Numbered from the stretch's first letter, positions 17,024-42,508 are shown. The stretch: DNA of 64,000 bases from Octopus sinensis (GCF_006345805.1 NW_021831989.1:606266-670265), one strand, 5' to 3'. The notes: generated by a model not told the origin, from the letters alone. Translations and numbers: made by a program.

Positions 17024-18284
17024 CAGTGGTTCCCAACCTTAAGGTGCTCGCGGAACCCTTTTGGGCTAATTTATTTTTTGCGGAACCCCTCCAATTCAAT
17101 TATTATAATTTCACTTAAAACATAATAGTAATAACCAAAAACAATTTTAATGTGAACATTGGGGTAATTTTTTATCATAGCATAGTTGTGTAACGTTAGG
17201 AGTTATTGTTGACAACTGTATCCTCATATCAGCGGAAGCATTGAGTTTATTTCTATATTTTGTTTTGGTGGATGTATATATTGAAAACCCAGACTCGCAT
17301 AAGTAAGTCGTTGGAAAAGGTAATAGTTTACGTATAGCCTTTTCTGAGATATCTGGATATTTTGAAATGTATCCCCTCCAAAAATTAAAAAGGGATTCAT
17401 TTTTATATAACTGATATGACGCTGATTCTGATGTCAAATCAATAAGATGTTCATGTTCAATTGATGTTAGATTTGCTGGTATTACTTTAACTTTGAATGG
17501 GTTTTGAACCCAATCGTCATCAAATTTACCCGGAAAATATTTCGCTGGGGTCCGCGGAACCCCGAAAAATATTTCCAAAAGTTCCTGAATTCGCCTTGAA
17601 ATAGTATTATTTGACAAAGGAACAAGATCCAGATTCTTCGACATTTGTTCGCCATAAATACACTCGATGATTTTTTTTGAACATGGCTTTATAAGATTTT
17701 CGGCAATTGTATGTGCCTCTCCACAACGTGCTACAAGATAACTCACCTGTTTGATTAAAATAATTATATACTTCATAAGATGCTCTGGTCGATTTTAAAT
17801 TGTCGTCTTTCGCAAAATTGGGCATTTCCAACTTGCACCTTGTAGATGCATTTAATTTGTTTTGAAAAAAGGAAATATCTTTATCCTTTAAATGAGGATG
17901 CTTCATCAATAAATGTCTTGATAGTTTAGCAGGAACAAGAGATGTGTTAGACATTATATGATGGCATATTACACATTCTGCCGTATGTGGTAAATCAGAT
18001 CCATTCTGAGAAAACCCATATGAGAGGTAGCTTTCATCATATTTTCTTTTCTAAAATTATAATTATAAAAAAAACCTTTTTTGAATATTTTTTGGAATCT
18101 CTTATGCAATTATTGTTTCTCATTAAAAATCTTATAAAATTGACCAACTAACTCAAAAGAGAAACAAGATATAAGTGTGGATGTTTAATATATTTTAATA
18201 ATTAAAAACTATTAAAAAATAAATATAATAAATTTCGCGGAACCCCAAAACTGGCTCCGCGGAACCCCAGGTTGGGAACCACTG
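17024..18284 (-). mobile_element. hAT (Buster-type) DNA transposon, internally deleted, both ends intact
   Basis: 16-bp TIRs cagtggttcccaacct / aggttgggaaccactg; perfect 8-bp TSD CCCTAACT (17016-17023, 18285-18292); subterminal gcggaaccc repeats. Confidence 0.95.
17147..18123 (-). CDS. Spliced, internally deleted hAT transposase (BED zinc finger fused in frame to the C-terminal dimerisation domain, 308 aa)
   Basis: ATG at 18123; 25-nt introns at 18051-18075 and 17747-17771. RKYDESYLSYGF..CVIC..PAKLSRHL..KH, HTIAENLIKP, VPLSNNTISRRI, then joined to WVQNPF..FW..YP..LLPFPTTYLCESGFS..KTKYRNKL. Confidence 0.75.
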
Positions 18285-18344
18285 CCCTAACTTATTAATT
18301 TTTTTTTTTGTTATGAAAGCAAGAAAGAAATTAAAGATATCTAA

Positions 18345-18490
18345 GTTAATTAAAGGCCTCACGAGACACCCGACCAGCCTCGCGAATGGCGAAGCCGTTC
18401 CCTCGGATCACAGCAATCGACAGACGTTCCAGGAGCCAAGAAAACTCTCTTGGATCGTGACTAGTCCTTGAAATCCGTCGACCGAGCGAT
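18345..18490 (-). mobile_element. CRE-like retrotransposon 3' end
   Basis: LGRRISRTSHDPREFSWLLERLSIAVIRGNGFAIREAG; same family as 30330-30430. Confidence 0.75.
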
Positions 18491-19114
18491 TAATTATTCA
18501 GTGTTTAAATAAAATAATGTGTTCAAATAAATTGATATTATAATGATGAACTTAAAAAAATATGAAAAATTGGAAAATAAACGGTAAAGGCCACTTCTAA
18601 TCATTCGCAAACATATTTCATATGACTACATTTTTATGAATATTAATCATTTTGATTTATTGTATAATCAAGATCAAGATTATTAGTAGATATTGGCAAC
18701 TAAATATTTTTTTTATTTCAAAAGTATAAAAAAATTATTTTTTACTTGACTAATGATATTTTAAAGATTTTTGATTGTTGCTATTAAACCTGGACATTTT
18801 TAGAGGAATATTGATTTAATTTATAAGATATATTGATTGATTAGATATAGCCCATATGTTTGAATAAAATTATTGAACTAGTTTTATTAAACGGTATTAA
18901 TGTACACTCTGTTGATTGAACTGTTGGAAATAATACTATTGTCGATATGTAGCTGACTTTAGCAAATTTTAATAGAGAGTGCTTTATAATCAGTATTTCT
19001 TGACATCAATAATTGTCGAGATAACGTTTGTGTCATTAAATCGTTCAGATCTTTGATTTAGATTATATATACTTAATGATTTTTACTCGTTCTAGAATTA
19101 GAATTCACGGGAAT

Positions 19115-20686
19115 ATGCTCTCGCTCTTTATAGTTTTTGATCTTTTTATGGGAGGATTCATGGTCGAAAATCTTAATGGTATGTGTGATTTATCTCTTAA
19201 TCTCTACACTTTTAGATGAACACAGATTATTGTACGATTTATTTGAAAAACAGAGGTACAACCCACTTGTCCGACCTGTTTCCAATCATTCAACCCCCCT
19301 ATTTGTCCAATTCAGTCTGGCTTTTCAGCAGCTTATAAACATAGTGAATACGTTGAAAATTAATTTTTAGGACGAAAGGAATCAAATAATGAAATCCAAT
19401 GTCTGGCTCACATTTGTTCACAATCTTTTTAGTTGTATTTATAGAACTGGAAGGATTTTCAGCTCATGTGGGATCCTGAACAGTACAACATGGTAAGCTC
19501 AGTCCGCGTGGATCACTCGTTTGTTTGGACACCCGATGTTGTTCTTTTTAATAAGTTTCTATAAAATTGTAAATTATCAAGTGCCGACGGAAACTATGAA
19601 CCATCTTTCATGTCGAATGTGGTTATTTACAACACTGGGCTTATTCTCTGGGTTCCTCCGGCCATTTATAAGTCATCTTGTACAATCGATGTGTCCTTTT
19701 TTCCTTTTGATCAACAAATATGCGAAATGAAATTTGGTTCCTGGACTTATAATCCAGATGAACTTGACTTTTTGGACGTGAATGCAGATTTAAATGACTA
19801 TCGAATCTCCCAAGTATGGGATATCATCGATTACGAAACTATAACAAAAAGAATAAATAGTGATTTAGGAAAACATGTTGAAGTTGTATTTCGTTTTGTC
19901 ATACGAAGAAAGTCGTTGTTTTATTCTAGCAATCTTATTATTCCCTGTGTACTCATTGCACTGCTCAGCGTCACTGTATTTTATTTACCGGCTGATGCTG
20001 GTGAGAAGATTACTCTATCGATTTCTATATTATTTTCTATAAACGTTTTTTTGCTTCTGGTGTCCAAGATTCTGCCTCCGTCCTCGACAATTCCTTTGAT
20101 TTCAACATATCTTCTTTTTACGTTTATTCTTAACATTTTTACTATATTTGTGACTGTCATTCTCATCAATTGGAACTTCCGGACTCCGAGGACACATCGA
20201 ATGTCCAAATGGTTCAAGATTATTTTTCTTAAATATCTTCCTCGGATTCTGCTAATGGAACGACCTGACCATACCAAACGTTATCAAAGTGCAATGGAAC
20301 GCAACAACAATTATAAACAATTGGATAAACAGAATTTTGTCTCATATTCACCAAAAAGTTTTGAAACCCAGGAATCTGAAAAGTCCCCTCCACTCGAGTC
20401 TTCTCCATTTTTTCCGGCTGACTTGGTCAGACGAGATTCAACTGCAGAAGACGCTTTAAATTCTATCAATTTCATAGCTCATCATTTATATGAGCAAGAC
20501 GAATATAACGCAGTGAGGGAAGACTGGAAGTATATTGCTTCAGTATTCGATCGACTTCAGTTGTATATTTTTCTGCTTGTTACCGCAATTGGCAGTATTG
20601 CTACTTTAATGAATGCTCCATATGTTTTTGATTTTGTTGATCAGAAGGAGATTATCAACACAATAATTAAGAGAAAAAATACTTAA
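19115..20686 (+). CDS. Nicotinic acetylcholine receptor subunit, non-alpha type (cation-selective Cys-loop channel), 4 micro-introns in the 5' part
   Basis: Signal peptide; EHRLLYDLF..YNPLVRPV; DERNQIMKSNVWL; WTPDVVLFNNADGNYE; Cys-loop CTIDVSFFPFDQQIC; KFGSWTY; TM2 GEKITLSISILFSINVFLLLV; EDWKYIASVFDRL. No vicinal CC in loop C. Confidence 0.95.
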
Positions 20687-20899
20687 ACTGTTTAATTTCG
20701 TGTTTTTTCATAAAAATTATTTACTACAGCAATTCCCGAAAAAACTACGTAGCTATTTTACCGATTAGACAAAAATTTAAATTAACAATAATTCTGGAAG
20801 TCAATTCAGGTTAGCATGGTCATAGATTGTCGATATCCGGACTGTGGTCCTAGTTAAAATGATTGATTTACAAGACTACTTTGTCTTCGGTAACATAAG

Positions 20900-22690
20900 A
20901 TATTTGCAGGGACTTTCCTTCCCTTTCAGGGAAGGACGTCATCCAGTCGGGACTCTATCTGTCGCTTCTAAAAAGGCCACCTAGCTTAAGAGTTGAGGGG
21001 AACCCAGCCGACTTTAGAGCCCTCATGACAACGTCATTAAGTTGAGTGTGGCGAGGAATTTTACCGGCATTCTTCTTACACAACAATGCGTGCTTGCCGT
21101 TCGACGAAATTGTGGACCCGTACCGATAGGGATGAAGCTGGCAGATGTCCAAGCCCAAGCGTAAACAGATACCGATCTGTAATGATAATCTTCCAGTAGT
21201 AATCTCGTGCTGGGAATAGGGAGTGCTTTGAGTCAATCTCAGTATTCGGCTGACAAGCGCAGTTTAGTAAGGCCAGTTGAAGTTGATCTGACTTTGAACA
21301 AAGTTTGCGTAAAGTATTTAAGCCAAAGGTTTCGTCCCAGTTTTTTGAACTTAAGGAATCGCGAGGAAATCGAGGCCAACCGAGCTCCGAGAGCTCATTA
21401 AGTTCTATAGAGGTGAGTATAACTGAGCAAGCGGAATTCCTGGAAGCCGACGTGGAGAAAGATAGCAGGGCAGGGCCGGGTCCGCACAAAAGCGAATCCA
21501 GATTTCCCAGAAACGTGTAGGTAGATCGGGATAGGTAAAACCGTCATCAGTGAACGTGAATCACATTACTTGTTTTCTAAATTCGGGATTCAATTCTTGG
21601 TACTTGACAACGTCACTCTTTGAGGGCCACTTAATGTGTTTCTAAATGACGTTTCAAAAGTCATTTTTTCGGAAATTGGCCTAACCTTCAACGAGCATAA
21701 GCCTGAGATAATCAGAGTTACGAAGACATACTCAATTTTAACAGATCATTTTCTGCTTTCTCGAGAAACATCAAAAAATTTTCAGCCACAGAGATAAAAA
21801 AATCTAATCATTTTTGGTTCCCAAATCTACACAAAATGAATTAAAAAAACCCTTGTTAGAAGGAACTTTTGTTATAATGTGTACTTAATAGGTCTCGTCT
21901 CTGAGGGTACATCTGAGCTGTTCAAAACTTTTTTTATCTACAAACATTGTCCTGAGGGACTGTCTAAACTTGATGACCTGATTTCCTATGGTCTTAATTC
22001 CTTGCTGAACATCTAATTACATTGCGGTGGCATGTTACTGGCTAAACTGTCTTGTCGGTTAGTGCGAAATCAGAATCTAGTCCTAGAGACTTGGCTCTTC
22101 CGCCCTTCCTTAAAACTTCTTACGTTTTCCGCGATCTTGTTAACTCTATTCTTTATGAGTTGTCAGAATGCGTGGCCGCCTTGGGCATCTGTTCCGACTT
22201 AAATCTAGAAATTTCAAAGAATAAAAGTTCTCAAAAAATAGAAAACAATTTACTGTATGTCTGCTAGACAAAACTTTCGCTCCCGCTCAAAAAACTAGAT
22301 CTAGCTACCTTTAACACTGCCAGGCTATCACTTCGAACAGGTAGTCACGGCAAACGCAGTTAAAAGTGTTACTAACTCCCAGCTTTACGATGAACTTAAA
22401 ATCTTCGGGCTTTTACGAGAATTTTTCAGACATCCTGGACGCTTCCCCGTACCGGAAACTCCAGGTTTATAGAGGAAACCACCCTGCGGGACATTATCTT
22501 GGCCGAGAGTTTCCTGAAGACGTTAACGACCGCAATGGGCCTCACGCTACCATCGGCCTTACAGGGCAATGAAAGAAAAGGGAAGAGAAGAAGTTCTCTG
22601 GCGACAATTGAACTCAATCCTGAAAAAGGGAAGGGCAAATTTCCGTACGGAGCAGACATACTTTACAGTTGGAAAGATGCGAGTGGCAAC
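20900..22690. mobile_element. Scrambled CRE-like retrotransposon fragments on both strands
   Basis: Minus: GKHALLCKKNAGKIPRHTQLNDVV.RALKSAG, and ADGSVRPIAV.NVFRKL (CRE RT). Plus: YLDNVTL and RDLALPPFL. Confidence 0.75.
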
Positions 22691-22857
22691 GGATATTTTA
22701 TAGTTGTAATTTATTAAAACCCTTTGTCCTAAAAGAAGGATATTTTAATTTTTTATTAAGAAAGATTAATTTGAGTAAAAATAAATTAATATGAAAATTA
22801 TTGATTATAAAATATAAACTTGTTACTTTTTCTTGCTGTTGTGTACATTCGCAGATT

Positions 22858-23955
22858 ATGAGCGAGACTCCAAACTTTCGAAATATAGACATTTTAAGCC
22901 CACCTGATCGAATAACCAGACTTCAGTTTCATCCCCAACAGCAAAACACTTTGTTGGCTTCTTCATGGGATAACTCACTTCGCTTATACAACATATCAGA
23001 AAATCAACTGTCGGCGAACCACAACTGCAGATATCCAGTCCTCGATTGCTGCTTTCAAGTATATTTATTGCACCCGACTATTATAGACGGACTATAGAGT
23101 TTGGGCTGCGTGTATTGACGGATCCATAAAATCTGTAGATTTCAACACCCTTTCTGGTCGAATCACTTTGCATTACAATTAGAACTTATCGTTGGGAGAC
23201 ATGAAAAGCCGGTCAGTCAAATATGCTACTCTGATGACCATGGAATTGTCATTTCTGGAGGATGGGACTGTTTTGTCAAAATGTGGGATCTGAGAATGGA
23301 CAAATTTGCCCATAATTTACAATTGCCTGCGAAGGTAGGAGGATTTAGCGTAATTTGTAGATCTATTCGATGAGGACCAGCCATAACACGCTAGTAGTTT
23401 CCAAGTCCGACAATAAAATCTCGATTTATGATTTGAGGAATCCAGAAAAACCAATTTTTTTAAACGGACCCTCGATAACAGGCAATTCAAGGTGTATTGG
23501 GCTGTCCAAGATTAATTCGGATATTTGTTCTCTTGGCACGACGGAAGGTCGAGTTCATGTGCTCTTTATGGGGAGTGAGTCGGAGAACTCTGATCAGACA
23601 CACTACTCCTTCAGATGTCACCGACTCTTCGAGGACAACTGCGAAATGATATACCCTGTCAATACCATCGAGTTCCATCCTACCTTTAATCAAATTTTTT
23701 TGTCTGCCGGGTCGGACGGAATGGCCATTCTTTGGGATGCAGTAAAGAAAAAAAAGTTGTACGAGTTTGAACGGTTTTGATTTTGCATGAATTAATAGCT
23801 TTCCTGCGGGGATTGCCAGTCTGTGTTTTAACTCTGATGGCTCCCAGTTGGCGGTTGGGTGTTCTTATCTTCATGAGTTTGGCGAAATTCCCAATCCTCC
23901 TCCTACCAGTATTACCATTTGTGAACTACAGTCTCGGAAAATTAAATATAGTTGA
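22858..23955 (+). CDS. BUB3: Mitotic checkpoint WD40 protein BUB3, spliced
   Basis: PPDRITRLQF..LLASSWDNSLRLYN..VLDCCF; SGGWDCFVKMWD; GTTEGRV; YSFRCHRL..MIYPVNTIEFHP..SAGSDG..WD..KKKL; FNSDGSQLAVGCSY. Confidence 0.9.
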
Positions 23956-24199
23956 ATTCCCTTGTGCATTGTTAATGGATGAATTGTTTTTTTAATTAAT
24001 GTTAGCTCATTTAAACGAAGTTAGTAGTTTAATCAATTTGTTGAGTTAGTAGTTTAATCGACTAAAAATAATGTAGATTAATTTACTCAAATAAAATATT
24101 ATTTCAATTTATTTGATTTTATTTTTAAGATTTAATTGTTTTAAATTTTTTTATTAGTTTAATTGGCAAACGTGTAATTTTATTTTGTGTGATTTAAGA

Positions 24200-26154
24200 A
24201 TGGAGTCTAATGATAGCCCCCCAGGCACAATTCAGACTATCATATCGACACTGGGGAGAATGTTATTAATATATTTTACAATTTCATTTGTCTTTAATAT
24301 GTTTTCGCCGTCACAAAAATCTCAAAACGTACAATCTGGTCAATTCAGAAATATTTATTCCAACGACGCTAAAATTGTCATATATTAAAAAATAAGTATT
24401 TGTAGGACATTTATTTTTACCTGAGTGATTCCGCGGTTGTCACCGACTACTCTCAATATATCTGGACTATTCCTAGCATCCCTTATGCAGACTGGAATGG
24501 CTCATATTCTTACTCGCATACATTTAATCCGTCAGTGGTATACTGTCCTCTTATCACTCTAATAGAAGTCTCTGAATAACGGTTCGATATACCTCATTTC
24601 CGTAGCCGTGATTTCCGGCGATAGTCCTGATCCACAAAGTAAGGCTTACTCGTCCAAGACATCAGTTCAAAACTCCGAAAGTTTATCTTATTTTCTTATT
24701 AAGGTCTGACAAAATATTTAAAAATTACATTTAAAAAATCTGTAAATTTACTGAGCGGGAAAAAAAGCAATGAATATGTATTCTGGTGGTGATTGATTTG
24801 GTCAGAATAAGGAATCTATAATAGTGTCTCACTACCACCCCAATATCACTGTTAATTTATTCTGTGACGACCATATCTGGCCTTCCGTCGAGGTCAATGA
24901 CATCTTGAAGCAATGTTTTATATTTTTAAATGAGTAGTGAACAGTTATCAACTTTCAGCCTCAAGACAGTTCATACAAGCCAGTGTTCTTTTTCAATGAT
25001 TTTTGGAACCTTCGAAGTGAGTACGAGCCCCTCAACGACACGACTCCGTATTTTGTAGTTTGTAAATTCAGGACTTTGGAACTACACTTGACTTATTCCC
25101 CAATTTCTCTTCTAAAAACGCAATTCTATTTGGGGGCCTCTAGGAAGAATCCGTACATGAACTACTTCAAGACTGATGGTGACGAAGAGGACGAAGATCA
25201 AGATAGTCTTAAGGTGTTGTTTGTCCTGAATTATCAAAGACTATGCTGTTGGAGACAAATCCTTACCTGCTCGTCCTTACTGTCGTGATATCCCTTGTTC
25301 ACAGCGTGTTCGATTTCCTTGCCTTTAAAAACGGTACGCTGAGTTGCTCATTTGGAGATATTCAATTTTGGCAGAACAGACAGTCCGTCGTGGGATTGTC
25401 AGTTCGTAGTATCTTCTTCAACATTTTCCAGTCTGTCGTCGTGCTTCTCTACGTCTTTGACAACAACACTAATTTTATGGTGAGACTTAGTCTTATCGTC
25501 TCCCTTGGAATCGAAGTTTGGAAAATTCCAAAGGCCTGCAACGTTGCGGTTTTATTTTGAAATCATTTCATAGGTCGTGTGGTACAGCTTGTTCTCATTT
25601 TCTTTTCCATTTGTTATGCTTACTAACAAAGAGGACTATGAAGAGTCACAAACTTTGAAATATGATCAAGTTTGCCTTTTTAATTGAAACTACAAGTTGG
25701 CGTTTCGATACTTATCATGGATTCTGTTCCCGCTGCTTTTTGGTTATGCAATCTATTCGTTAGTCTATTTGGAGCATGTTGGGTGGTATAGTTGGGTATT
25801 GTCTATGTTGTATGGATTTCTGCTCATGTTCGGTATATATCTTTATTTAGAGGAGTAGGGTTCATAATGATGACTCCTCAATTATTTATTAACTATAAAT
25901 TAAAGTCGGTCGCACACCTTCCTTGGAGAATGTTGACTTACAAGGCAATGAATACGTTTATTGACGATTTGTTTGCATTCGTGATTAAGACACCTACGTT
26001 GTACAGGATTGGGTGTTTCCGTGACGGTAAGGCAGTGGTTGTTAGTGTAGATATAATCTTCTTTATATATCTTTACCAGAGATACATTTATCCAACTGAT
26101 AAAAAGAGGGTTAATGAATTCGGGACTGATGGAATGGTCGACAAAATAGATTGA
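24200..26154 (+). CDS. CLPTM1: Cleft lip and palate transmembrane protein 1 (lipid scramblase family), spliced
   Basis: FFNDFWNL, LETNPYLL, FDFLAFKN|DIQFW, GLSVRS, GFIMMTPQLFINYKLKSVAHLPWRMLTYKA.NTFIDDLFAF, YRIGCFRD|DIIFFIYLYQRYIY..RVNEFG. Confidence 0.93.
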
Positions 26155-27329
26155 TCATATTCCACATTACTTAACTAACTTTTGTTTTCTAAAATAAATT
26201 AATTGTTAAATAGTTCTCCAGAATAATTAACATAGTGTTGAACTATCTTGTTTTTAAATCTAAAAGTACTTTTCATATGGAACATTTAACGAAGCAAACG
26301 GAGATTTTAATCTGATCACTTTCCCGACAACATCCTAATATTATACAACAAAGTTAGTCTTTCCGTCAATCCCAAAATTATCATCGTATGTCTGGCCATC
26401 TATCTTTCAGCGTTGTCTTTAATACTTAAACGTTATTGAATGAGTATTTCAAGCATAAGAAACAAAAGAACATCGACAGATTTTGAGTTTATTAGCTTTT
26501 GGGTACTATAGCAATAGATTTATAAGCAATTTTAATGCCTACTCAAAACTAAAAAAATAACTCTTAGTTTAAGGTGGGTACCAAGTATTTGACCTTGACA
26601 ATCAATCCTATCCATCCAGTTTAAAGATAATTCGAACCGTTATACCGAGATTTTTTTTGTACAGACATTAAAACACTAAGCAGATTTTTAAACTCCAGAT
26701 ACTTAGACATTACTGAATAATACATGAATTAATCTGAATCATGAATTATGAGAAGATTATACTGCTAAGAGCTAGATATTAATTTTGTATGAAATCAATG
26801 AGTGCCATATATTCGGCCATTTCTCTTTTGGTTGAGGTGGTGACGTACCTCTGTCTGTTTCGGATATGTCTTTTTCGCGTTTTACAACTTTCGAGATGTC
26901 CCCCACGTATTCATTTGGGTGCTTTAACACTTCTGATGATCTCGACAATCTGAGAGAATTGGAAAAGAGGAGAGGCACCTGGAGAAGGTTGTGGAACAGT
27001 ATTGTTGTTTACGCGGCACAAGGGAAGCTTAATTAGTTTTATGACTTCTCGGGAGTGCTTTTAATAATAATATGAAATCAATCAATATAAGCATCTTGCA
27101 AATCAGAAGGGAGGGGACTGAAGAAATGCTGTTAGAGAATAGAAATAAGGTTAACCTGCAATCCGCTTTAAATGTTTTTACATAAAAATATAAGACCGTG
27201 AAGTCAAAGCTTTGTGCTTGCATAGCTGCTACAAAGAGATCTTAATAGATAAGCCTTATTTTATTTAATAAAAATGAAATGTCAAAACACAGACGAGATG
27301 AAAAGTGAATCTTGGATCTAAAATTTGTG

Positions 27330-28166
27330 AATGAATGAATATGGTTTATTTAAAATTTGTCCTTTGCAGTTGATGCTACCACACATTTGAACGACCTTAT
27401 TTTGGAATTACAGGGCAAAACAAGCTCATAACTCATTTGTCAAATGATATTAAGTTTTTTATTTCGAAAATAAAATTATAGAAGTTTCAATTATTAAATA
27501 AAGATTTAACTAATTTTTTTACTTGTAAAGAGCTGAAAAGTACTGTTGGTGCACGTACTGTAATGAATTTTTCCAGTAGGAAAAAAACTGGATTTGTTGT
27601 TAAAGGAATTTCAGGAAAGATTCAATGATTTTTCGTCTTTTGAACAGGAATTTTCATTATTTACAGCACCATTCGCTTTTGATGTCCAATGCAGATAAAA
27701 GTTGACAAATTGAATTGTTGGAAATCTATACTAAAGGCTAAATATTTGGAAGTTGGAATATTTGCTTTCTTTACGCATCTTCCTGAAAAGATTAAAAACT
27801 TTAGAAATTTTGCTGCCAAAATAATTGCTATTTTTGGTTCGACACATGTGTGTGAACAACTTTTTTCATTTATGAAATTAACAAAAACTGTTCATAGAAC
27901 ACGACTCACAGATAAAAATCTGTTGACTTTAATTAATGTCGGGACTACACGAATAATCGAGTCTGAACTATCAAAAATTGTATTGGAAAAAAGAAGTCAA
28001 TCAGATGTCAAGATGTGAAGTAGGTCTAAGCACGATTAAAAGATGGTGATTACATATTTAGATTTCTTTATTTTTGGGTTTTCACTAAAATGAATAAATA
28101 ATCTTTTTTTGATAAAAAAATTATTATAAATGCGGCTCCTGAAACAAAATGAGTTTGACACCCCTG
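27330..28166 (+). mobile_element. hAT (GTF2IRD2/SPIN-like) transposon 3' part with right TIR
   Basis: AFAVD..HLNDL.LELQGK; FGSTHVCEQLFSFMKLTK..RTRLTD; terminal gagtttgacacccctg at 28151-28166. Confidence 0.8.
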
Positions 28167-30950: not shown

Positions 30951-31239
30951 AAAATTAGATTGATTAATATCTAGCCTGGGAAATTCGAACAAATTGATAA
31001 GAATGTTCGCAGAATTTTTTATTGAGATTCATATTCATCTGCGACCGGCAAACAAAACAAGAATTTACCTATCAGAGAATAAACTTGGAAGAGGCCTTAA
31101 CTATGTCAGCAACAAATCTGAACAAGTGTTTTTCAATTTTACCATGATTTGGAGCATAAAGTCAATTACTGCCTGAGAAGGACATGTTTTTGATAAAGAA
31201 TTATAATTAATAGTTATTCCGTTTTCGTTATTTGTAGTG

Positions 31240-31805
31240 TTTTATTCTATCAACCTCAGTCTCTTAGGGCCCAGGTTCAGTCCACGGATGGCCAGATTCA
31301 TGTCAACGTGCAGTCTAAATTCAGGGGCTACCTCTTCAACAGGCATCGATAACCCGTGCCTTGTCTCGGCTTGCATGCTTTCTAAGGTCTTCCGCAACAT
31401 CAGTGTCTCGATGTATGCCTTCACCCTGTCCTCCACGCCAAGCACCGCCAGATGGTTTTTGAAGTATTTTGACACTATTCCGTCCAAGGTCATGACGACA
31501 GGGACGATTTTTTACCTTCGCCCGGCGGATCGTTCCCAGTTCATTTTCCAAAAAGTCGTATTTGTGGAACTTTTTCACTTCGACCTGCTTGAGACAATTC
31601 TGTGAAGTGATCCCCACCTCGATAAGCGTAATTGTGTTGCTCGATTTGTCGTGAACAAATATGTCGGGTTTGTTATTCGGGACAGCATTATCAGTCTGGA
31701 GGTTTGTATCAAGTCGGAATTCCACAAATTCATTGGTGGTAACAGATTGGACTGAATGGGTTTTTAATTTTTCGACTTTTTAATCCCATATTGGCGACAT
31801 AGATG
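31240..31805 (-). mobile_element. R4-like retrotransposon RLE domain (3' end)
   Basis: EFRLDTNLQTD..NNKPDIFVHDK..ITLIEVGITSQ..EVKKFHKYD.LENELG; DGIVSKY..AYIET.MLRKTLES. Confidence 0.85.
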
Positions 31806-31807
31806 TA

Positions 31808-33060
31808 CAGTGGGCCCAAAAAGTCATGGCACCACTTAATAAATTTTAGTATTTTACGTTTTTACCCATAAAATATGAAGTATTTTGACTTTTAATTATT
31901 TTTTTGAAAACTTAAAAAGATTGTGAATTAGAAAATAATTTTAAATCTTTAAAATTACCGATAACTGACAAAGAAAAAACATTTGTTTAATTTTTAGCGT
32001 TATTTAAGGGTCAATAAGTGTTGGCACGATGCCTTATTAATATTTTGTTGCATGCCCTTTTGCAACAATTACTGCTTCTAATCTTCTTTAGTATGTATCT
32101 ATTAATTTAAAGCATTCTTCTTTGGAAATTTTATTCCACTCCTCACGGCAGAATGCTTTTAACTCCACTATATTTCTAGGTCTTCGGTTTCCTACCTTTA
32201 TTTTCAACGTTTTCCATAAATTTTCAATTGGGTTTAAGTCAGGAGATTGACTAGGCCATTTCAGAACATTTATTCCTTTATTATTAGGCCATTCAGTAGT
32301 TATTTTAGCTTTATGTTTGGGATCGTTGTCGTGTTGAAACGTCCAATTGCTTCTTAGCTTTAATTTATTGATGGACGGAACTAAACAATTTTCCAAAATT
32401 TCGACGTACATCTTGGCATTCAATATTCCATCTATGAAAAATAGTTCACCCACTCCTCGAGACGAAAAACACGCCCATAAAATTATGCTCCCTCCTCCGT
32501 GCTTAACTGTCGGTATGGTACATTTTTTGTCATATTCTTGATTTTTTTCCTCCAAATATATTTTTTATAATTGAGGCCAAAAAGTTCAATTTTGGTTTCA
32601 TCTGACCATAATATGTTCATTATATATTCTAAATTTTTATTTAAAATATTCTGAGCGAATTTTAGTCGCGCTGATATATGGACTTTTTTTAGTAGAAGAA
32701 TATGTCGTGCCCTCCTTTTATGAATTCCTTGTTTGCGTAATGTATTAGTTATCGTAGATAAACCAACTTTGATTTCCACGGTCTCTAAATCATCTACCAG
32801 CTTGCTTCTAATAATTCTGGGATCATTTGCCACTGTACTTTTTATCATTGAAAGAGAACGGCTCGATATCTTTTTAGGTGCACCAGACCTCGATTTATTG
32901 CAAACATTTCCTCGTTCTTTCCAACGGACTATTATATTTCTTACTGAACTTTTCGGAATATTGAATTATCTGGAAATTTGGTTGTAACTTTTTTTTTCTT
33001 GGTGGGACTTGACGATCATCTGTTTTAGCTCAAAAGAATATTCCTTCCGATTTCCCATAA
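31808..33060 (-). mobile_element. Tc1-family DNA transposon, degenerate; 5' TIR missing
   Basis: TA+cagtgggcccaaaaagtcatggcac end; HTH..RSGAPKK; ILWSDETK; TVKHGGGSIILWACFS; FQHDNDPKH; SPDLNPIENLW. Contains stops and frameshifts. Confidence 0.9.
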
Positions 33061-33099
33061 AGTATCCATCGAGCCCATCGAGTAAGCAAGCTTTCATAG

Positions 33100-33365
33100 A
33101 TATACAAAGACATGACATTCGTCACAGATTTTTCATCATTTTTTTCCAATCCAGCTAGGTCAAAAAACGATTCAACTTCTACTATCATTTCCATCATGTC
33201 ATTGTGACGCGAAAATAGTTTTATATCGTCCATAAAAAGAAGGTGGTTAATAGCATATGCGGGTTCCCCCTTCCTGAGTTTCCCATCATTACTTTCGGGA
33301 ATTTTCCGTCGAGCATTCGGCTTAGAGGGTTCATCAACAGCACAAAGATCAGAGGTGAGAGAGTA
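33100..33365 (-). mobile_element. R4-like RT fragment (domains 4-6)
   Basis: LSPLIFVLLMNPLS..INHLLFMDDIKLF..GLEKNDEKS. Confidence 0.8.
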
Positions 33366-35160
33366 CAGTAGACTATCCATTTAACGAAAAAAAATTTAAC
33401 GAAAATATTCATTTTACGAAAGTCAAAATATTTTTTTTACGTTTTTCCTTAGATAAATTCAAAAATAAAATTTTTTTTCTTTGTATTAGTGAATATTTAA
33501 ATATATTTAACGAATATTTAAATAACGAAAATTAAAATTTTTGATAAAATTTTAAAATAATTTTTCCTCGCTATTTCTTTGTAGTAAACCATGTGTGCAA
33601 GGATGAACAATATGAAGAAAAAAAGAAAAACTTATCAAATTCAACAAAAACTGGAAGTTATTGATTTCAAGAAGAATAATCCTGCTGTTACTCAAGAAAA
33701 TTTGGCTCAGCGGTTTAATATGCCTATTGGAGTGATCAATTCAACGTTGAAGAAAATGCAATTGTATGGATCAAGGCGTCACAAACAAAAAAAGAATGTT
33801 ACACTTAAAAGTTGTACTGATAAGATATATGAACCACTATATGCATGGATTCAGAACAAACGTTTCTGTAATCACACCATAACTAATGAAATGGTACGCG
33901 AAATGGCACTCAAAATTGCTCAACGATTTTATATTGAAAATTTCAAAGCATCTCACCCATGGATTTTACGCTTTAAGGAAGAGTATAAAATAAAAACACT
34001 CACGATTTCTGGAGAAGAACAATTAGTGGATCCCGTTTTGCTTATAGATTCATATGAACGCTTTGCAGCCATGTTAAAAAAATATGGATCAAAAAATTTT
34101 TACAACTGCGATGAAACTGCCCTTTTTTCAAATGTACTCCAAAAAAAACATTAGTTCTTGACTCCGAATCAAGGGCTTCAGGAAAATTTTCTAAAGAACG
34201 AATAACACTGTTATTATGCACAAATATGGAAGGAGATAAAGAGCATCCGTTGGTAATCGGAAAATTCAAAAATCCTCATGGTTTTAAAAATATTAATATG
34301 AATAATCTTGGGATTCAATATGCAAATAGCAATAAATCTTGGATGACCAGTTTAATTTTTAAAAACTGGGTTGAACGGTTAAATTCCAAAATGAGTGTGG
34401 AAAATAGAAAGATTTTGCTTCTTTTAGATAATGCGCCAGTTCACTATTTTGATGGCGAATTCAGTAATATCGAATTGTATTTTCTTCCTCCAAAGACAAC
34501 ATCTAAGATTCAACCAATTGATCAAGGGATTGTGCATTCATTTATAACGTTGTATAAAAAAGGAATGACTAGAAATTTGAGTATGGGAACAAATATAGGA
34601 ACATTGTCATATACAGATGAACTTACCAAATTCAAATTAGTTAATGCTCTACCTTTAATTATTGAGGCTTGGAACGAAGTCACAGTGGACACTATCAAAA
34701 ATTGCTTTAACAAGGCATTAAATAATTGGGCGAAGATAGATGAAAAAATACTTGAAGAATCCACTGACGAAAAAGGTATTAAATTTAAATCATCTTACAA
34801 TTAAAGATAATAAAAGTGAAATTATGATTGAGTTTCCTGTCTGTGCACCTGTCGTCTGCGAAGAAAACGCGTATCTTGATACAATACAATGTGAGGAAGA
34901 AAATGAGCATGAAGAAATAGATAGCACAAATGACAATCCCATTGGTATGCAGACGCACTTAAATATTGGAAAATATTGAAAAAATTTTTTGCAAGAATCT
35001 GGTGAACATATTCACCTAATTACAAATTTGAGAAATATATTGGCAAAAATTAAAAAGAAGGAACCTAAAATTACCGATTACATGACACATTTTTAATTAA
35101 ACAATTTTTTTCGTTAAATCATTTAACGAATGCTCAATTTTCATTTTTGTTAAATGAATA
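33366..35160 (+). mobile_element. pogo/Tigger DNA transposon (CENP-B HTH + DD30D), near full length, frameshifted, with a 31-nt intron
   Basis: TA+cagtagactatccatttaacg left TIR; FKAS.PWI.RFK; NCDETALF; KERITLLLCTNMEG; LLLDNAPVH..30 aa..QPIDQG; C-terminal EPKITDYM (PIP-box-like). The right TIR ttgttaaatgaata is cut by the next element. Confidence 0.9.
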
Positions 35161-35953
35161 CAGTACCGCTCAAATGTTTCGGACCACCCTATTTTTCTCA
35201 ATTTCCAAGTCAATCCTAAATTATTTTTTACGGTTCTTTAGAGAAACTTATTAGATAAGCTTAAATACATTTATTCTATTCTAAAATTTTCTTTAAATTT
35301 TTTGTTTGGCGCCAATTGAATATAATTGATTTTTGACTCGATCATATGTTCCGGACCAGTTGCAATCATATGTTTCGAACCAGTTAAATCTCTTTAAATT
35401 TAAATAATTTTTGATTCAATTAAAAACAAAAGACTAATAAATAACAAATGCCGCGTGTTTCACTGGTTGATCGGGTCGCTATCATCACTTTTTTTAAAGA
35501 TGGAGCTTCACAAAGAGAAATTGCCGAAAAATTAAAAATATCCAAAACTGCTGTTCAAAGAACAATTTCCAGATATTCATCCGTTGGACTATATTCCGAC
35601 AGACCCAAATCTGGTCGACCGAGATTGTTATCCCCAAGATCTGAACGCAAATTAGTGAGAATTTCGAAAGCAGACCCCACAAAAACGGCAAATCAAATTA
35701 AATTTGATATGAAATTAAATTCTATTGTAAGCACAAATACAATTAAAAGATGCCTACAAAGAAATAATTTGAATGGGCGAAAGCAATGCCCAAAACCAAG
35801 TCTTTCCATATGCCATAAAAAGGCTAGAAAAAATTGGTGCATTGAGAAATTAACTTGGAGCCAAAATGATTGGGGTAAAATTATTTTTAGTGATGAATGC
35901 AAAATAAATTTGCATTCAAACACAAAAAATTATGTTAGAAGGCCACCAAACTC
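35161..35953 (+). mobile_element. Tc1-family transposon 5' half, truncated
   Basis: TA+cagtaccgctcaaatgtttcggacca with internal repeats (tgttccggacca); ORF from 35448 with HTH, SGRPR and IIFSDECK; truncated after YVRRPP. Confidence 0.85.
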
Positions 35954-36335
35954 TAGTATACATCTATTGATTTTAACTTCTCCCAGTGTTTTGCTTTCCA
36001 AATTTATACAGATTTTCCATTTGGTAGTGAGTTTCTTGATACCATTCAACATTGGAGGCCAGAGTTTTGCAGGGTCTTGATTAAGAATTCGTGATTGACT
36101 GAGTTAAATGCTTTCCTCACATCAATTCACATACAAGATAGCTTATTCTCATTTTGCTGGTTGATACAATGATTTACAATTGCCTGTTCCTTCGCTCCTT
36201 GACACATTCTTTGTGTTCCAAGTTGATTGTTGCTAACAAGACCATATGCGTCTAATTTGTTGTTCACACACTTTTTCATCAGTTTATACATGTTGGACAT
36301 ATACGTAATTGGTCTCAAATCCTTGGGCGAATCAC
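35953..36335 (-). mobile_element. R4-like RT fragment (domains 1-4)
   Basis: PKDLRPITYMSNMYKL..NNQLGTQRMCQGAKEQA..IDVRKAFNSVNH..LGEVKINR. Confidence 0.85.
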
Positions 36336-36511
36336 ATATATAAACTTTTGGTTAACCAGACTACTAAGACAACCACATCGATGGATAACTGTTGCCCGAA
36401 TATTTGCAACTCTCCTTCGAGTTGACTGCAAGTACACAGGAAAAATTTTGTCCAATTACTAGCAAACGATAAACGGAATAAGTCAACATTCAATCAAAAA
36501 TCGGTCTATTT

Positions 36512-37119
36512 CAGCGGTTCTCAACCTTTTTTAGACTGGGGACCACTTTTGCACTATAAAATTTTGTGGGGACCACCTAAATAAAATAAACATTTTTTGG
36601 TATTAGCGCACAATTTTGGCCTCGTCAGGGCCAGGTTTAGACATGTTCGAATATTTATTATAAAAATAACATGAACATTATGAAAATAACAGAAAATTTA
36701 ATAGTAATTTAGTGAGATTTCTGATCTTGTTTGCTCGGAATAATTTTACTTATATCAGGCTCTATGTTCGACAAAGCTACTCGCATATCATCTTGTACCC
36801 GTAGTCTATTCTATATTTTGTTTTTAGAAAAGTCAGACACGACATCGCCATTTCACAGTGATAAGTAGTGGGGAATACAAGTATTGATTCCAATGCAGTT
36901 TTACTAAAAATGGGGAATTCTTTATATTGTTATTTTTCGAAAATTCCTGGGGACCACTAAAAATTTTCTGGGGACCACGATTGAGAACCGCTTGATTAAT
37001 TTCAATGTTTTTGATTTATACTTAATTGTAAAATTAGTTTTAACTTTATATATTTTTATTTTTCGAAAATTCCTGGGGACCACTAAAAATTTTCTGGGGA
37101 CCACGGTTGAGAACCGCTG
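36512..37119 (-). mobile_element. Non-autonomous hAT (Buster-type) element
   Basis: TIRs cagcggttctcaacc / ggttgagaaccgctg; 8-bp TSD GTCTATTT (36504-36511, 37120-37127); ggggacca subterminal repeats; remnant FPTTYHCE..KTKYR..DMRVALS. Confidence 0.93.
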
Positions 37120-37212
37120 GTCTATTTACTGGCTTTAATAAAAAAATTAGTAATTTTGTCGGTAATTAAATTGTAGCAATGTTAATTCAACAGATTTATT
37201 AGTAAATAAAAA

Positions 37213-39820
37213 TTAATTTTTACCAAAATTTCTGACCTAATAATATAACAAAAACTTTTCACTTTTCTGATAAAATTTGAAGACCCACTCGATTTATTTG
37301 TATTCTCGGCAATCATTGAAGTTTGTTCAATCTGTTCATTTAACGATGCATTCAACAAAGACATTGTCGTCAGCTGGTTTCCATACTCCCTTACACTCAC
37401 TTCAAACTCGTCTCGTAGACTGTCGTAATCTCTTTGTTTGCTATGCAACAAATCGCACATCACATTCCGATCGCGAGTAATTTTTTCCAATTGTGCTTCC
37501 AAAGCAAAACACTTTGATAATTATATAAGATAACACCTCAGTACGATAAAATACTGATTTGCTGTCTGCTTCTTTCAGTTCCGAAAAAATTTGAGCTATC
37601 CTCGAATTAAAATGCTCACGAATTAATTCCTCTCTTAAATTATTTGAGTTTTCAGGGTCAATTGATTCAAGCGAAAATATTCCCTTTCAAAGTAACGTGA
37701 TTGTCAATACTCTGTTCAATTCATATTCAGGGGAATCTCCGTTCGTAGATAAAATTAAATTTTGCTTTAATTTGGCACGGGCTAATTGATATTCCAACAT
37801 CCAATGTTCCTTTTCTGACTCCAAGGTAGAAATCTGCCCATGATAATGTTCGACTTGCTCCTTTAATGCGTTCATATTACGTTTGGACTCAAAAAGTTGA
37901 ATCTCCATCTGAATTGCCTTGTCATTATCCATGTGAAGAGGTGCTTCTTTGTTGCAAACAATTTCAGCGAATGACGATGCTCTTTTGTGAAATTCGTCGA
38001 CAGATGAACAACAAAATCGAGGTTTTGTAAAAAGACTCTTTTTCCTAATTTCGTTTATGAAAGGACTGAATTTTTCTATGACCAAATCCATCTATAATAT
38101 ACAGATAATCAAAATACTTCTTTAATATTATTCCAAATGTTAGTTATATTTTGAGAAAGCTCCTTGTTAAGAAGTACAAGTTCATTACTTATATTTGGCA
38201 TTTCAAACTCATATGATAATAACGAGTCAAAATTAACCGCTAAATCTATTGTAAAGAAGGTAAACCAACAAAAAACCACTCAATGAAACGAATAGTCTAT
38301 TAAGACCATCAATAAATGCCATCTCTATCTGATATGGAGAATAATATTTTTCAGCGAAAGTGAGATCTAGTTTTCAAAATAATATGTATACCTCCACATT
38401 CCGTAACTGGAATGTACGCTTCATATATATCCTGGCATATAGCGTTGTAGTTTATCAATGATTGATGCGTACAAGATAATTTTGAATGTAATAAACCGGG
38501 AGAGCCAAATGACACCAACTCCGATTTAAAACTAAATATATTATGCTTTCCAAAAATCAACCACATATTCAAAGGATCTAGGAAATGATTGAATGCGCGA
38601 GTATAGTCCCTCCAACAACTCATAAATGAAGAGAGGTCACCAAGCGAAGCCAAAGAAATGTGATGACAACTTCCAGCATTAATAAACAGCTGTCTTAAAA
38701 GCCCGATAGCCCTCTCGAGATATTCCATTACGTCTTCTCTTTTCAGCTGGGACTCACCAAATTTGAAATATTTGAATCTCTTCTCAAGCGAAATATGTAA
38801 ATCAAGAAATGCTTTAAGAGTGCAAACGAGCACATTCGACAACCCCAAAATAAATTTTTTAGACGACTGGGGATTGCTTAATAGTCCCGAATTATCTAAG
38901 TCAATCCAATCAAATGATTCCAATTCTGAAAATAATTTTATTATCAATACTGGAGGCACTAAGGAACGTATCTAATGTCTGTATAAAGTCAGCTTTTGAT
39001 TCATTCGGCTGAAAAACTGAGGTAGTCTTGAACCTTGTGGATATTTAACATTCTATACATTTTAAGTTCTAAATTCAGTTTAATTATCTCCGAGTTTAGT
39101 TCTTCCACATCGTTCTGAATAGAATCATTTAAACATTAAAATACTGTATATGAAGTTACTTTTTGTTCTAGAAAACGATTTTTCCGCTGTAAAGCTTCAA
39201 CGGTGTCACGGGCTTTGTTCAAATCTGTCACAATCTGGTCATTTTTTTCGTTTAGTTTAAAAATTTCCTCTTCATGTTCAGATCTGTTTTCGAAAATCTA
39301 TTTTTGATTAAAACAAAAAACTCTTCTGTGGAGTTCCATGTTTTCCTCGACTTTATTGCTTAATTCAACACGAATGGCTTGATCATTAATGCATCCATCG
39401 GAATTCTATTTATTATATATCATTTAAATATTTGTTGATACTTTTTTTGTCTTTTTACTCTTTGGGATTGCATTTGCTTGTGCTAATTCTAACTGAAGTG
39501 CCCCTACTCGATGAACCAATTCTTCATTTCTAAATTTGAGGGTTTCAATGTCTCGCTCCTGTACTCTGATTTTTATCTCTTTAATGGCCTCAGAGGCCTT
39601 TGATTATTTATAATTAAAAACTTTGAGCTCATTATAGTTTGAATTTAGTTCTTTATATATATCTTTCAAAACAGTAAACGATGATTTTAACTACATTTTG
39701 GCACAATAACTATACTTTAGAATATTCTAGGGCAAGCGTCTTATATTTTTCAGTTTTGTCGGTTTTAGTGTCACTCGAGTTATACTAACTGATAAAAAAT
39801 TGTAAATATCTCTCAACCAT
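37213..39820 (-). CDS. PPP1R21: Protein phosphatase 1 regulatory subunit 21 (FERRY complex Fy-2, KLRAQ-motif coiled coil), spliced
   Basis: N-terminus EKYKTLALEYSK|LKSSFTVLK..ETLKFRNEELVHRV.ALQ.EL; C-terminus REELIREHFNSRI..ADSKSVFYRTE|C..LRDEF...REYGNQLTTMS..SLNEQI. Confidence 0.8.
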
Positions 39821-40313
39821 AACCACAACCAATAATTAATTATCTATTTAATTATTAAGAATTTATATTTATCTGTTAATTTTATTTTATTTTAAACTTT
39901 TAAAAATATTATTATAAAAATTTTCAGGAAGTTAAAGCTTAGGTAAACTTATAAATAAGAATTATTCGTGTTAATTGAATTTTTGGAGAAGTTATATCAA
40001 AGGCTGAAATAAGTCATTAATTTTATATTTCCATCCAAAGCCACTATCTAATTGCCAAAAAGTTCCAATAATAAAAATTTACTATTTTTTGATTATTTAT
40101 GAAACCTTAATACTGAGTAAAAAAGTAAATTAAGAAAAATGATATCCCTCGCAATAGTACGCTCGAACTCTTTCTTGATCGCGTCAGGCTCTCGCCGAGT
40201 AAAGCATCAGCTCTTTAATTCATTAATATAGATAAAGTTAAGCTTTTAAATTGAAATCTTTAGCATGAAAAAAAAAACGAAAAATGATTGAATTTATAAA
40301 GTTTGTTATAATG

Positions 40314-40623
40314 TGTCACGAGTCTAGGTTGTTACCGAGCCTAGGTCGTTACATTTCGCTTATTTTTCTATAAAGATTAAAAATTAATTTATCGCTAATC
40401 CTAATAAAATTATTCTTAATATTTAAAATTAATCTATTAAATATTAAAACAAAAATATCCGGATAACCATACATTTGTAATTGTAATATGTCACATTTAA
40501 TAGATTAATTTTAAATATTAAGAATAATTTTATTAGGATTAGCGATAAATTAATTTTTAATCTTTATAGAAAAATAAGCGAAATGTAACGACCTAGGCTC
40601 GGTAACACCCTAGGCTCGTGACA
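40314..40623. mobile_element. Foldback MITE with ~129-bp TIRs (TGT..ACA ends), Ginger-like
   Basis: Arms 40314-~40442 and ~40495-40623 are reverse complements with about 2 mismatches; 5-bp direct flank TAATG (40309-40313, 40624-40628). Confidence 0.9.
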
Positions 40624-40689
40624 TAATGATTCACTTAGCAATTGGGTAGCAAAATTTAGCAAGTGGAAAAGTCCAATAAACATTTCTTC

Positions 40690-40970
40690 TATTTTTGGGG
40701 CCACTACACCATTAATCTATCTCACCCAGTCGTATTGCAGCAATGAGGCTGACTCCTCTGGGAAATCATTGCACTTCCAGTTCTCTAGCAATATAAGCAT
40801 GTTCTCAAACGTTTTCTTGATTGTTAATGACAGGATGTATGCTTTAGACAAAATATCTATGTTTAAATTTTTCATATATGATTTATAGAACTTGGTCACT
40901 AATCCATCCTATGTCAATAAAATAAGAACCATGAATTTTGCATTCTGGATTTAGGCCAATTCTCCAGCAT
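40690..40970 (-). mobile_element. R4-like retrotransposon 3' end
   Basis: DGLVTKFYKSYMKNLNI..KAYILSLTIKKTFEN. Confidence 0.65.
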
Positions 40971-40973
40971 ATA

Positions 40974-42508
40974 CACTCCTCGCCAAAAAAATGATTCAAA
41001 ATTCATATTTAGTTTTTCTTTGAAAATCTTATAAATATTCTAATTTCAAAAAACTTAGTAGATTAGTTGTAATTATTATGATTTAATTTTAATAAAATAT
41101 TTGCTAATTACATTAATTTGGAAAAATTAAAAGCATGACACACAATATGTTAGTATATGTCAGTGACAAAAAAAATGATTCAAAAATATTATCTATACAA
41201 ATATCTTTTTTTATATGATTTAAAATCTCTATTTTAGGAAAAAGCATATGGATAACTTTACAAAAGGAAAAATTATTGCTTTATATGAAACAAAAATGAC
41301 ATTTCGGGCAATTTCTTTGAAAGTTGGGGTACATGAGGCCACAGTGTCTAATTTTATCCAACGATACAAAAAGAATGGCACAATCCATCGGAAACCAGGA
41401 TCTGGAAGGCCAAAAATACTTGATAAAAATGATTTGAAAGAATTGATAAAGTATTCGGAAGAAAATCCAACAAAAACATCTAAAGAGATCTCAAGTGTAA
41501 TGACGAAACTAACCAATAAAGCAATTTCCTCAAGAACAGTTATAAGAAATCTTAATGAAAATGGTATATTTGGACGTATCGCAAAAAATAAGCCATTTTT
41601 GAATATAAGACACACTAAAAAAAGATTAGAAATAACGAAAAGATTTCTTGCCATTTCTGATGAAAAATGGAAAACCACAATTTTCTCAGATGAATGCATT
41701 TTTTGCGCCAATCCAAACAAAACTCGAAAAATAGTATATAGGAAGAGCGGTGAACAACTTAATTCCAAAAATATTTCAACAACAGTGAAATTTGGAACGG
41801 GTTGATTTGGCTTGAAAACAAAAAATAGGGAAAATCATGATATGGGGATGTTTTTCTTTTAACGGCGTCGGAGAATTAGTTTTTGTTGACGGATCATTGA
41901 ATTCTGCAAAAAATTTAAATCTTTTAGTCAACAGCCTACCGAGATCAGTTGCAAAAATGGGACTTAATGACCTTGTTTTTCAACAGGATAATGCACCGTG
42001 TCATACAGCGAAGTTAATCATGAATTATTTTGATAAAGAAAATATAAAAACACTAGACTGGCCATCCCAGTCACCTGATCTAAATCCAATTGAGCATTTA
42101 TGGGCTCATATAAAAGCGGAACTCAGTAAAATCGATTTGAAAAATGCTGAAGAATTAAAGCAGGAACTTCTTCATATTTGGGAAAATATTCCTAAATATT
42201 ATATTGAAAAACTTGTTTTATCTATGAAAAAACGTTGTTGGGATATTTTTATGGCAAAAGGAGGAAATACCAGATATTAATTACAAAGTTTTTAATTTTG
42301 AATCATTTTTTTTGTCACTGACATATACTAACATATTGTGTGTTGTGCTTTTAATTTTTCCAAATTAATGTAATTAGCAAATATTTTATTAAAATTAAAT
42401 CATAATAATTACAACTAATCTACTAAGTTTTTTGAAATTAGAATATTTATAAGATTTTCAAAGAAAAACTAAATATGAATTTTGAATCATTTTTTTTGGC
42501 GAGGAGTG
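40974..42508 (+). mobile_element. Full-length Tc1-family (IR/DR type) DNA transposon
   Basis: TA TSDs; ~210-bp near-identical TIRs (cactcctcgccaaaaaaaatgattcaaaa...), each with an inner and an outer aaaaaaaatgattcaaaa direct repeat. Confidence 0.97.
41248..42280 (+). CDS. Tc1 DD34E transposase, 334 aa after removal of the 28-nt intron 41801-41828
   Basis: Splicing gives TTVKFGTG|KIMIWGCFS. HTH/GSGRPK, IFSDEC, FQQDNAPCH..34 aa..SPDLNPIEHLW, AKGGNTRY*. Confidence 0.9.

What the first reader, a model, noticed from the sequence alone, without database searches (positions are those of the whole stretch)
17747..41828. Tc1, hAT and pogo DNA transposons all carry host-style micro-introns
Seen: a 28-nt intron in the Tc1 (41801-41828, restoring TVKFGTG|KIMIWGCF), two 25-nt introns in the hAT (17747-17771, 18051-18075) and a 31-nt intron in the pogo (34776-34806, joining DEK|DNKSE). 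All are GT..AG, of host size, and restore the reading frame. Inference: either ongoing micro-intron gain fast enough to hit mobile elements, or transposons adapted to (and were locked into) this host's unusual spliceosome. That would restrict horizontal transfer and could allow splicing-based, e.g. germline versus soma, control of transposition. I know of no description of this pattern.
Basis: partly seen in the sequence, partly recalled or inferred. Interest (0 to 1): 0.75.

Follow-up and report, generated by a model that had tools for sequence, protein, structure and literature searches.

The report
Parasite transposons that gained tiny introns
Three jumping genes in DNA that likely comes from a tiny kidney parasite of octopus are interrupted by 25-31-base GT-AG segments that are predicted to be spliced out like the parasite's own tiny introns; they were likely gained one by one, long ago, in some transposon lineages, while most of the Tc1 families sampled from the same DNA have none.

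Summary
The four segments exist as stated. Removing them gives frames that align with unspliced relatives: strong for the Tc1 and the inner hAT intron, good for pogo, weaker for the first hAT intron. No RNA run was listed, so splicing is unshown. The contig is likely a dicyemid co-assembled with an octopus; its own introns measure 22-38 nt, a known dicyemid trait. The pattern is not general: 3 of 20 Tc1 families carry an intron. About 20 positions in about 23 Tc1, pogo and hAT families follow the trees, and no copy lacked its family's intron precisely, so gains look old, not ongoing. The exon repeats the AG or GT in 12 of 21 inferred gains against 23% in host genes (post hoc). One hAT site is occupied in two clades that the data refuse to join (p-AU 0.0004), likely a parallel gain. 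Lock-in and germline control are untested ideas already voiced for other transposons. This scan found the pattern before on other DNA of this genome.

The parts
17024..18284 (-). Buster/ZBED5-type hAT, non-autonomous internal-deletion derivative; 16-bp TIRs, 8-bp target duplication
   Evidence: 10 or more other copies with their own 8-bp duplications
18051..18075 (-). Predicted 25-nt phase-0 intron 1 of the hAT (weakest of the four); joins the ATG exon 18123-18076 to exon 2
   Evidence: 23-25 nt in copies, varying in a T run
17747..17771 (-). Predicted 25-nt phase-0 intron 2 of the hAT, at ASYE|VSYL; same codon boundary as an intron of a separate hAT clade
   Evidence: 21 of 21 matching stretches 25 nt GT..AG
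33366..35160 (+). pogo/Tigger-like element, frameshifted copy; right end interrupted at TA by a Tc1
34776..34806 (+). Predicted 31-nt phase-1 intron behind the DDE_1 domain of the pogo
40974..42508 (+). Tc1 (DD34E) with about 230-bp inverted ends and TA duplication; coding 41248-42280, whole after splicing
41801..41828 (+). Predicted 28-nt phase-1 intron of the Tc1; 37 nt in a subfamily at about 84% identity; 27 nt, unrelated sequence, same site, in a sister family
32088..32965 (-). Second Tc1 family inside the span, no intron (one frameshift)
35161..35945 (+). Truncated Tc1 of a third family; its two full copies on the same contig have no intron
43318..44202 (+). Second pogo family, 294-aa open frame, no intron in the part covered
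12644..15781 (-). Host glycine decarboxylase with 20 introns of 22-38 nt (size yardstick)
   Evidence: against E. coli GcvP
19200..20686 (+). Host nicotinic receptor subunit with 3 introns of 27-29 nt; shows that the contig is not octopus DNA

Best explanation
The four segments are likely real spliceosomal introns of the size normal for the host, likely a dicyemid parasite co-assembled with an octopus genome, and were likely gained one at a time inside transposon lineages that had entered this genome without them. Shown: the segments, their frame effect, their presence in all copies examined, their absence from sister families and outside relatives. Inferred mechanism: a spliceosome that needs little more than GT, AG and about 25 A/T-rich bases tolerates a short insertion (probably filler DNA from repair of the breaks that transposition causes) when it lands beside an exonic AG or GT; the copy stays competent, founds a family, and the intron is then inherited while its inner sequence drifts. 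The gains are old and sporadic. A lineage with such an intron would depend on a micro-intron host, as a by-product and not as an adaptation.
For: Homology across the junctions. Host introns 22-38 nt in 23 of 23 homology-defined cases, median 25 nt in 1,419 predicted ones. A 9-nt indel between Tc1 subfamilies lies inside the intron with GT and AG kept. Same site, unrelated sequence, in a sister Tc1 family, 12 of 12 copies. The three intron-bearing Tc1 families form one branch (SH-aLRT 97) among intron-less families of the same genome; pogo introns at profile sites 204 (4 families) and 94 (2 families) each mark one branch (99, 99). The window's hAT and pogo group with outside, uninterrupted proteins, two of them from DNA contigs of 9 and 16 kb. 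Exonic AG before or GT after the intron in 12 of 21 inferred gains against 23% of predicted host introns (p 0.0009) and 4 of 23 homology-defined ones (p 0.011), as reported for young introns (PMC3488318).
Against: No spliced read was seen. Most outside homologues are unnamed and sit on 1-3 kb contigs that may come from RNA, so their genes could hold introns. My loose aligner also calls 'introns' with decoy dinucleotides (Tc1 6 true vs 1-5, pogo 12 vs 1-8, hAT 29 vs 11-21), so single-copy calls are soft; the list of 21 gains was chosen by hand and the AG/GT test is post hoc. The host set is ab initio (17 of 20 exact on one test gene, 0 of 3 on the other). PMC3488318 also reports the opposite trend for flanking signals in one gene family. 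The shared hAT site fits an old intron with many losses as well. No source sequence for any intron was found, so the repair step is a guess. The assembly has many one-base errors. Trees are quick searches without bootstrap.
Confidence: 0.7

Rival explanations
1. Shrinkage: the ancestors of these elements already had ordinary introns at these sites, which shrank with the host's introns and were lost from relatives.
For: Host genes of dicyemids keep ancestral positions (PMC2222250). Intron loss prevails in CACTA transposases (PMC4158355). One hAT site is shared by two separate clades.
Against: About 20 scattered positions, each confined to one branch, would need many independent losses. hAT copies on the chromosome-scale contigs and two proteins from long DNA contigs run through the site.
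Confidence: 0.12
2. Ongoing, fast micro-intron gain, for example by a mobile intron (introner), that hits transposons today.
For: Many positions in young, multi-copy families (copies 97-99% alike); duplicated AG or GT resembles a target duplication. An earlier AI note argues for ongoing gain in Ginger elements (unchecked).
Against: 0 precise intron-less copies for 28 junctions; positions shared across deep splits; no pair of the 1,419 predicted host introns with 3 or fewer mismatches, only 6 pairs with 4-5. Only about 1.5 Mb plus loci was sampled.
Confidence: 0.07
3. Selected regulation: the introns are kept because retention makes truncated, DNA-binding repressors in some cell types, as for the P element.
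For: Retention would end the Tc1 at 185 aa, after the DNA-binding part and before the second catalytic Asp, and shift the hAT frame after its N-terminal part. The hAT site was likely hit twice.
Against: Positions are scattered along the genes; the pogo intron lies behind the catalytic domain; most Tc1 families do without; intron-less families are also multi-copy and whole (346-aa and 621-aa frames).
Confidence: 0.06
4. The segments are inactivating insertions that are not spliced.
For: No RNA evidence here; public gene models read the pogo frame into the segment up to its stop.
Against: Fixed in all copies of expanding families; GT and AG kept over deep divergence while the inside changed; 71 exon differences between Tc1 subfamilies fall 43 at third positions, which points to a functional protein made across the intron.
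Confidence: 0.05

Closest known systems
Dicyemid and myxobolid ultra-short spliceosomal introns (PMC2222250, PMC6543705, PMC6736024, PMC13644364)
   Same: Size (mean 26.2 nt by cDNA, median 27 nt), GT..AG, weak signals.
   Different: Those papers, in the passages read, treat host genes and stress conserved positions; here the introns sit in transposases at positions that relatives lack.
Intron-bearing cut-and-paste transposons: Minos (60-bp intron, PMC2874221), BuT2 (five exons, PMC3942097), TLEWI (10.1101/656579), Ginger1 (PMC2836005), CACTA and plant mariner-like elements (PMC4158355)
   Same: Spliceosomal introns in transposase genes; gain reported for grass mariner-like elements; dependence on host splicing and a link to horizontal transfer already proposed.
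   Different: Introns are 24-37 nt; three superfamilies in one genome; many independent positions; elements keep their inverted ends and multiply (TLEWI lack them).
P element and Ac/Ds splicing control (as summarised in PMC4158355)
   Same: A retained intron would truncate the transposase.
   Different: No evidence here for tissue- or stage-specific retention.
Introners (PMC9860276, PMC12130899; search listing only)
   Same: Intron gain with a splice dinucleotide repeated in the exon.
   Different: No repeated intron family was found; here the transposon receives the intron.

Membership tests
U2-type micro-intron of dicyemid kind | GT..AG ends and 20-40 nt length like host introns | tested here: met
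U2-type micro-intron of dicyemid kind | Removal restores the conserved protein | tested here: met
   weaker for 18051-18075
U2-type micro-intron of dicyemid kind | Host-like inner signal | tested here: inconclusive
   13th-90th percentile of host scores, but the score barely separates host introns from decoys
U2-type micro-intron of dicyemid kind | Removed from RNA | not testable with these tools
   no run listed
Dicyemida (source organism) | Direct sequence match to a named dicyemid | not testable with these tools
   no named dicyemid among the 120 listed hits; assignment rests on intron size, octopus host label, two glycine decarboxylase genes
Tc1 (DD34E) | DD34E triad, HTH_Tnp_Tc3_2 and DDE_3, inverted ends, TA duplication | tested here: met
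hAT, Buster/ZBED5 type | Short inverted ends, 8-bp duplication, ZBED5-like transposase | tested here: met
   the group name Buster for ZBED5-like proteins is recalled
Autonomous hAT | Whole catalytic core | tested here: not met
   internal deletion in the window copy
pogo/Tigger | HTH_Tnp_Tc5 and DDE_1, short inverted ends, TA duplication | tested here: met
Introner | Near-identical introns at unrelated sites | tested here: not met
   (about 1.4 Mb sampled)
P-element-type splicing control | Tissue-specific intron retention | not testable with these tools
   no RNA

The most novel reading that the evidence does not exclude
Dicyemid transposases are a natural experiment in de novo intron birth: genes that arrived without introns gained at least 20, preferentially beside an existing AG or GT, and twice at the same codon in separate hAT clades; each gain traps the lineage in micro-intron hosts, and at the repeatedly hit site retention yields a DNA-binding-only repressor that selection keeps.
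Probability: 0.15. Interest if true: 0.72.

Novelty: new variant of a known kind. Interest (0 to 1): 0.42.

Why it matters
Clear cases of intron gain in animals are few, because the ancestral state is rarely known. Transposases that are uninterrupted in relatives give that state, and a host with minimal splice signals gives many events, so site preference, parallel gain and the claim that introns bar horizontal transfer become testable. In practice, the result also flags parasite contigs in a cephalopod assembly whose proteins carry the host's name in public databases.

Tried and rejected
Decoy-dinucleotide test of the loose aligner: GT..AG ranked first in all three superfamilies, but decoys gave many calls, so I replaced it with a free-excision test. 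Of the 38 calls I kept 26 and dropped 12 (tc7:295, pg4:332, ht1:450, ht2:304, ht5:402, ht5:422, ht16:240, ht21:508, ht21:523, ht28:217, ht38:139, ht42:455); nine of those kept miss the bar of gain 20 and distance 5 and were kept for a shared site or several copies; two introns outside the profiles and one were added. Host-parasite transfer: the best hAT and Tc1 relatives on chromosome-scale contigs are at most 50% and 45% identical; one unplaced contig with a 94% match to chromosomal hATs shares nothing with the parasite-type stretches and is likely host DNA. Transfer of the shared hAT intron between clades: its sequence is no closer to the other three than A/T-rich host introns are (5%, 96%, 12.5% score as high). 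Introner test negative; the identical pairs came from duplicated genes and repeats. The careful Tc1 tree did not finish; the quick tree is used. Paramecium papers PMC5405496 and PMC13085455 gave no passage on introns in transposons. Retroelements were not surveyed.

Full report
1. Observation. All four segments are at the stated places with GT..AG ends. Excision of 41801-41828 gives a 334-aa Tc1 frame with a DD34E triad; 4 of 4 closest full-length homologues align without a gap over exactly this excision. The hAT intron 17747-17771 was chosen with 6 of 6 homologues, the pogo intron with 3 of 5, the first hAT intron with 3 of 6. In a free-excision test, the Tc1 and inner hAT introns were best or within 1 point of best among 175 excisions, with 8 and 7 near-best alternatives; the other two lie outside the profiles and were not tested that way. 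The hAT is an internal-deletion derivative with an 8-bp target duplication and the pogo copy is frameshifted, so only the Tc1 could make a whole transposase. No RNA run was listed: splicing is inferred.

2. Source. The assembly has 2.72 Gb in 13,516 contigs, and the window ends a 670-kb contig. The window's nicotinic receptor is 99% identical to a database protein labelled Octopus sinensis on a contig of that length, but only 50% identical to the O. vulgaris protein. A second glycine decarboxylase lies on a chromosome-scale contig. Host introns defined by homology are 22-38 nt (23 of 23); an ab initio model gives a median of 25 nt and one intron per 46 codons in 81 single-copy genes (exact on 17 of 20 and 0 of 3 test introns). 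Dicyemids live in cephalopod kidneys and have introns of this size (PMC2222250, PMC6543705, PMC6736024, passages; PMC13644364, parts 1-2 of 3). A dicyemid source is therefore likely; it was not confirmed against a named sequence.

3. Copies. All copies examined carry their family's segment, and none of 28 spliced junctions occurs in the DNA in hand. A Tc1 subfamily at about 84% identity has a 37-nt version with the 9-nt indel inside the intron; exon 2 differences fall 18, 10 and 43 at codon positions 1, 2 and 3. A sister family, about 60% identical in protein, has a 27-nt intron of other sequence at the same codon and phase in 12 of 12 copies, and a third has a 24-nt intron 11 codons upstream.

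4. Survey. I searched 1.4 Mb of three contigs, the window and 147 loci for Tc1, pogo and hAT genes. Tc1: 3 of 20 families with at least 190 aligned residues have an intron; they form one branch (SH-aLRT 97) among intron-less families, next to the closest outside protein (calls in a fourth family came from one rearranged copy). Whole intron-less families exist (346-aa Tc1, 621-aa hAT). pogo: 7 of 15 rows in the tree have a retained call, most rows being partial; sites 204 and 94 each mark one branch. hAT: 7 of 16 parasite-type families in the tree have a retained call. After hand selection (see Tried and rejected) there are about 20 positions in about 23 families. Decoy dinucleotides show that single calls of the loose aligner are unreliable.

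5. Gain or shrinkage. The window's hAT groups with outside ZBED5-like proteins, two of which come from 9- and 16-kb contigs and run through the intron site; hATs on chromosome-scale contigs do too. The window's pogo groups with two uninterrupted outside proteins. Many outside proteins could derive from RNA, which weakens this. The inner hAT intron shares its codon boundary with introns in three families of another clade; holding the four together is rejected (84 log units, p-AU 0.0004, quick tree), and the intron sequences are not notably alike. Two gains are simpler than one old intron with many losses, but the latter is not excluded. In 12 of 21 inferred gains (one more is ambiguous) the exon repeats the AG before or the GT after the intron, against 23% of 1,419 predicted and 4 of 23 homology-defined host introns (p 0.0009 and 0.011). 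The test is post hoc. It agrees with stronger exonic signal at young introns, though the same review reports a contrary case (PMC3488318, passages).

6. Ongoing? No polymorphic site, deep sharing of positions and no repeated intron family argue for old, sporadic gains. The sample is about 2% of a dicyemid-sized genome (67.5 Mb, PMC6736024).

7. Mechanism. Shown: position, frame effect, fixation within families, absence from relatives. Inferred: splicing by the host; gain by a short A/T-rich insertion beside an AG or GT, likely during repair of transposition breaks; spread by transposition; drift of the inner sequence. Predicted: intron-bearing lineages would fail in animals that cannot splice 25-nt introns. 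No close relative lies on the octopus chromosomes (at most 50%), but intron-less families were not tested for transfer, so the barrier is untested. Retention would cut the Tc1 at 185 aa; nothing shows that this is regulated.

8. Known and new. Introns in cut-and-paste transposases are known: Minos (PMC2874221, passages), BuT2 (PMC3942097, passages), TLEWI (10.1101/656579, part 1 of 4 and passages), Ginger1 (PMC2836005, passages), CACTA and grass mariner-like elements, with P-type control and an intron-transfer link discussed (PMC4158355, abstract and part 1 of 2 of the discussion). Introner papers were seen as search listings only. Nine searches listed no paper on micro-introns in dicyemid transposons; the library lacks most subscription journals, including Ogino et al. 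2010 (recalled, not seen), and no supplements were read, where repeat annotations of the dicyemid genome may bear on this. Seven of the eight earlier AI notes listed report the same pattern on other DNA of this genome; my reading was written down before I saw them and they are not independent support.

9. Verdict. Real feature; a known kind of intron in a known kind of element, with a new and usable twist: repeated gain in genes whose ancestral state is known. Interest 0.42.

Noticed in passing
whole window; G000 C8460, C8702, C8697 and many unplaced contigs: Micro-intron, likely dicyemid, contigs lie in a cephalopod assembly, and their proteins carry the octopus name in public databases; the public receptor model skips parts between the tiny introns.
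   Followed up: partly
window 34122; L061, L062, L065, L066, L068, L070, L075, L076, L078, L080: About half of the 20 pogo copies aligned share a frameshift at the same T run just after the first catalytic Asp; L063 lacks it. It may be a systematic sequencing error, a defective subfamily or a slippery site.
   Followed up: no
window 35161-37110: Nested insertions: a Tc1 sits in the pogo's right end, is itself cut by a retroelement fragment, and a deleted hAT with a duplicated end follows.
   Followed up: partly
window 63091-63769: A second, frameshift-rich copy of the nicotinic receptor gene at the contig end; possibly an assembly duplicate.
   Followed up: no
window 19565-20686: The receptor gene has a 373-codon exon although host genes average one intron per 46 codons; possible intron loss by retroposition.
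   Followed up: no
window 57500-60500 (-), 47300-51800 (-), 22800-26150 (+), 55400-56050 (-): Host genes that look like a glutamate (NMDA-type) receptor, NPC1, BUB3, CLPTM1 and NUBP2; names recalled from motifs, not searched.
   Followed up: no
window 40314-40623 and 16560-16620: A 310-bp element with 129-nt, 98% inverted arms (MITE-like), and a related end at about 16600.
   Followed up: no
G000 C8460:356866-358009 (pogo): One copy has a 47-nt version of a 24-25-nt intron through an insertion inside it.
   Followed up: no
L246, L250, L251, L257-L260: A hAT family with three predicted introns whose lengths are all multiples of three (30, 27, 33 nt); three of four copies' intron 147 variants counted end in AT in 3 of 7 stretches.
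   Followed up: partly
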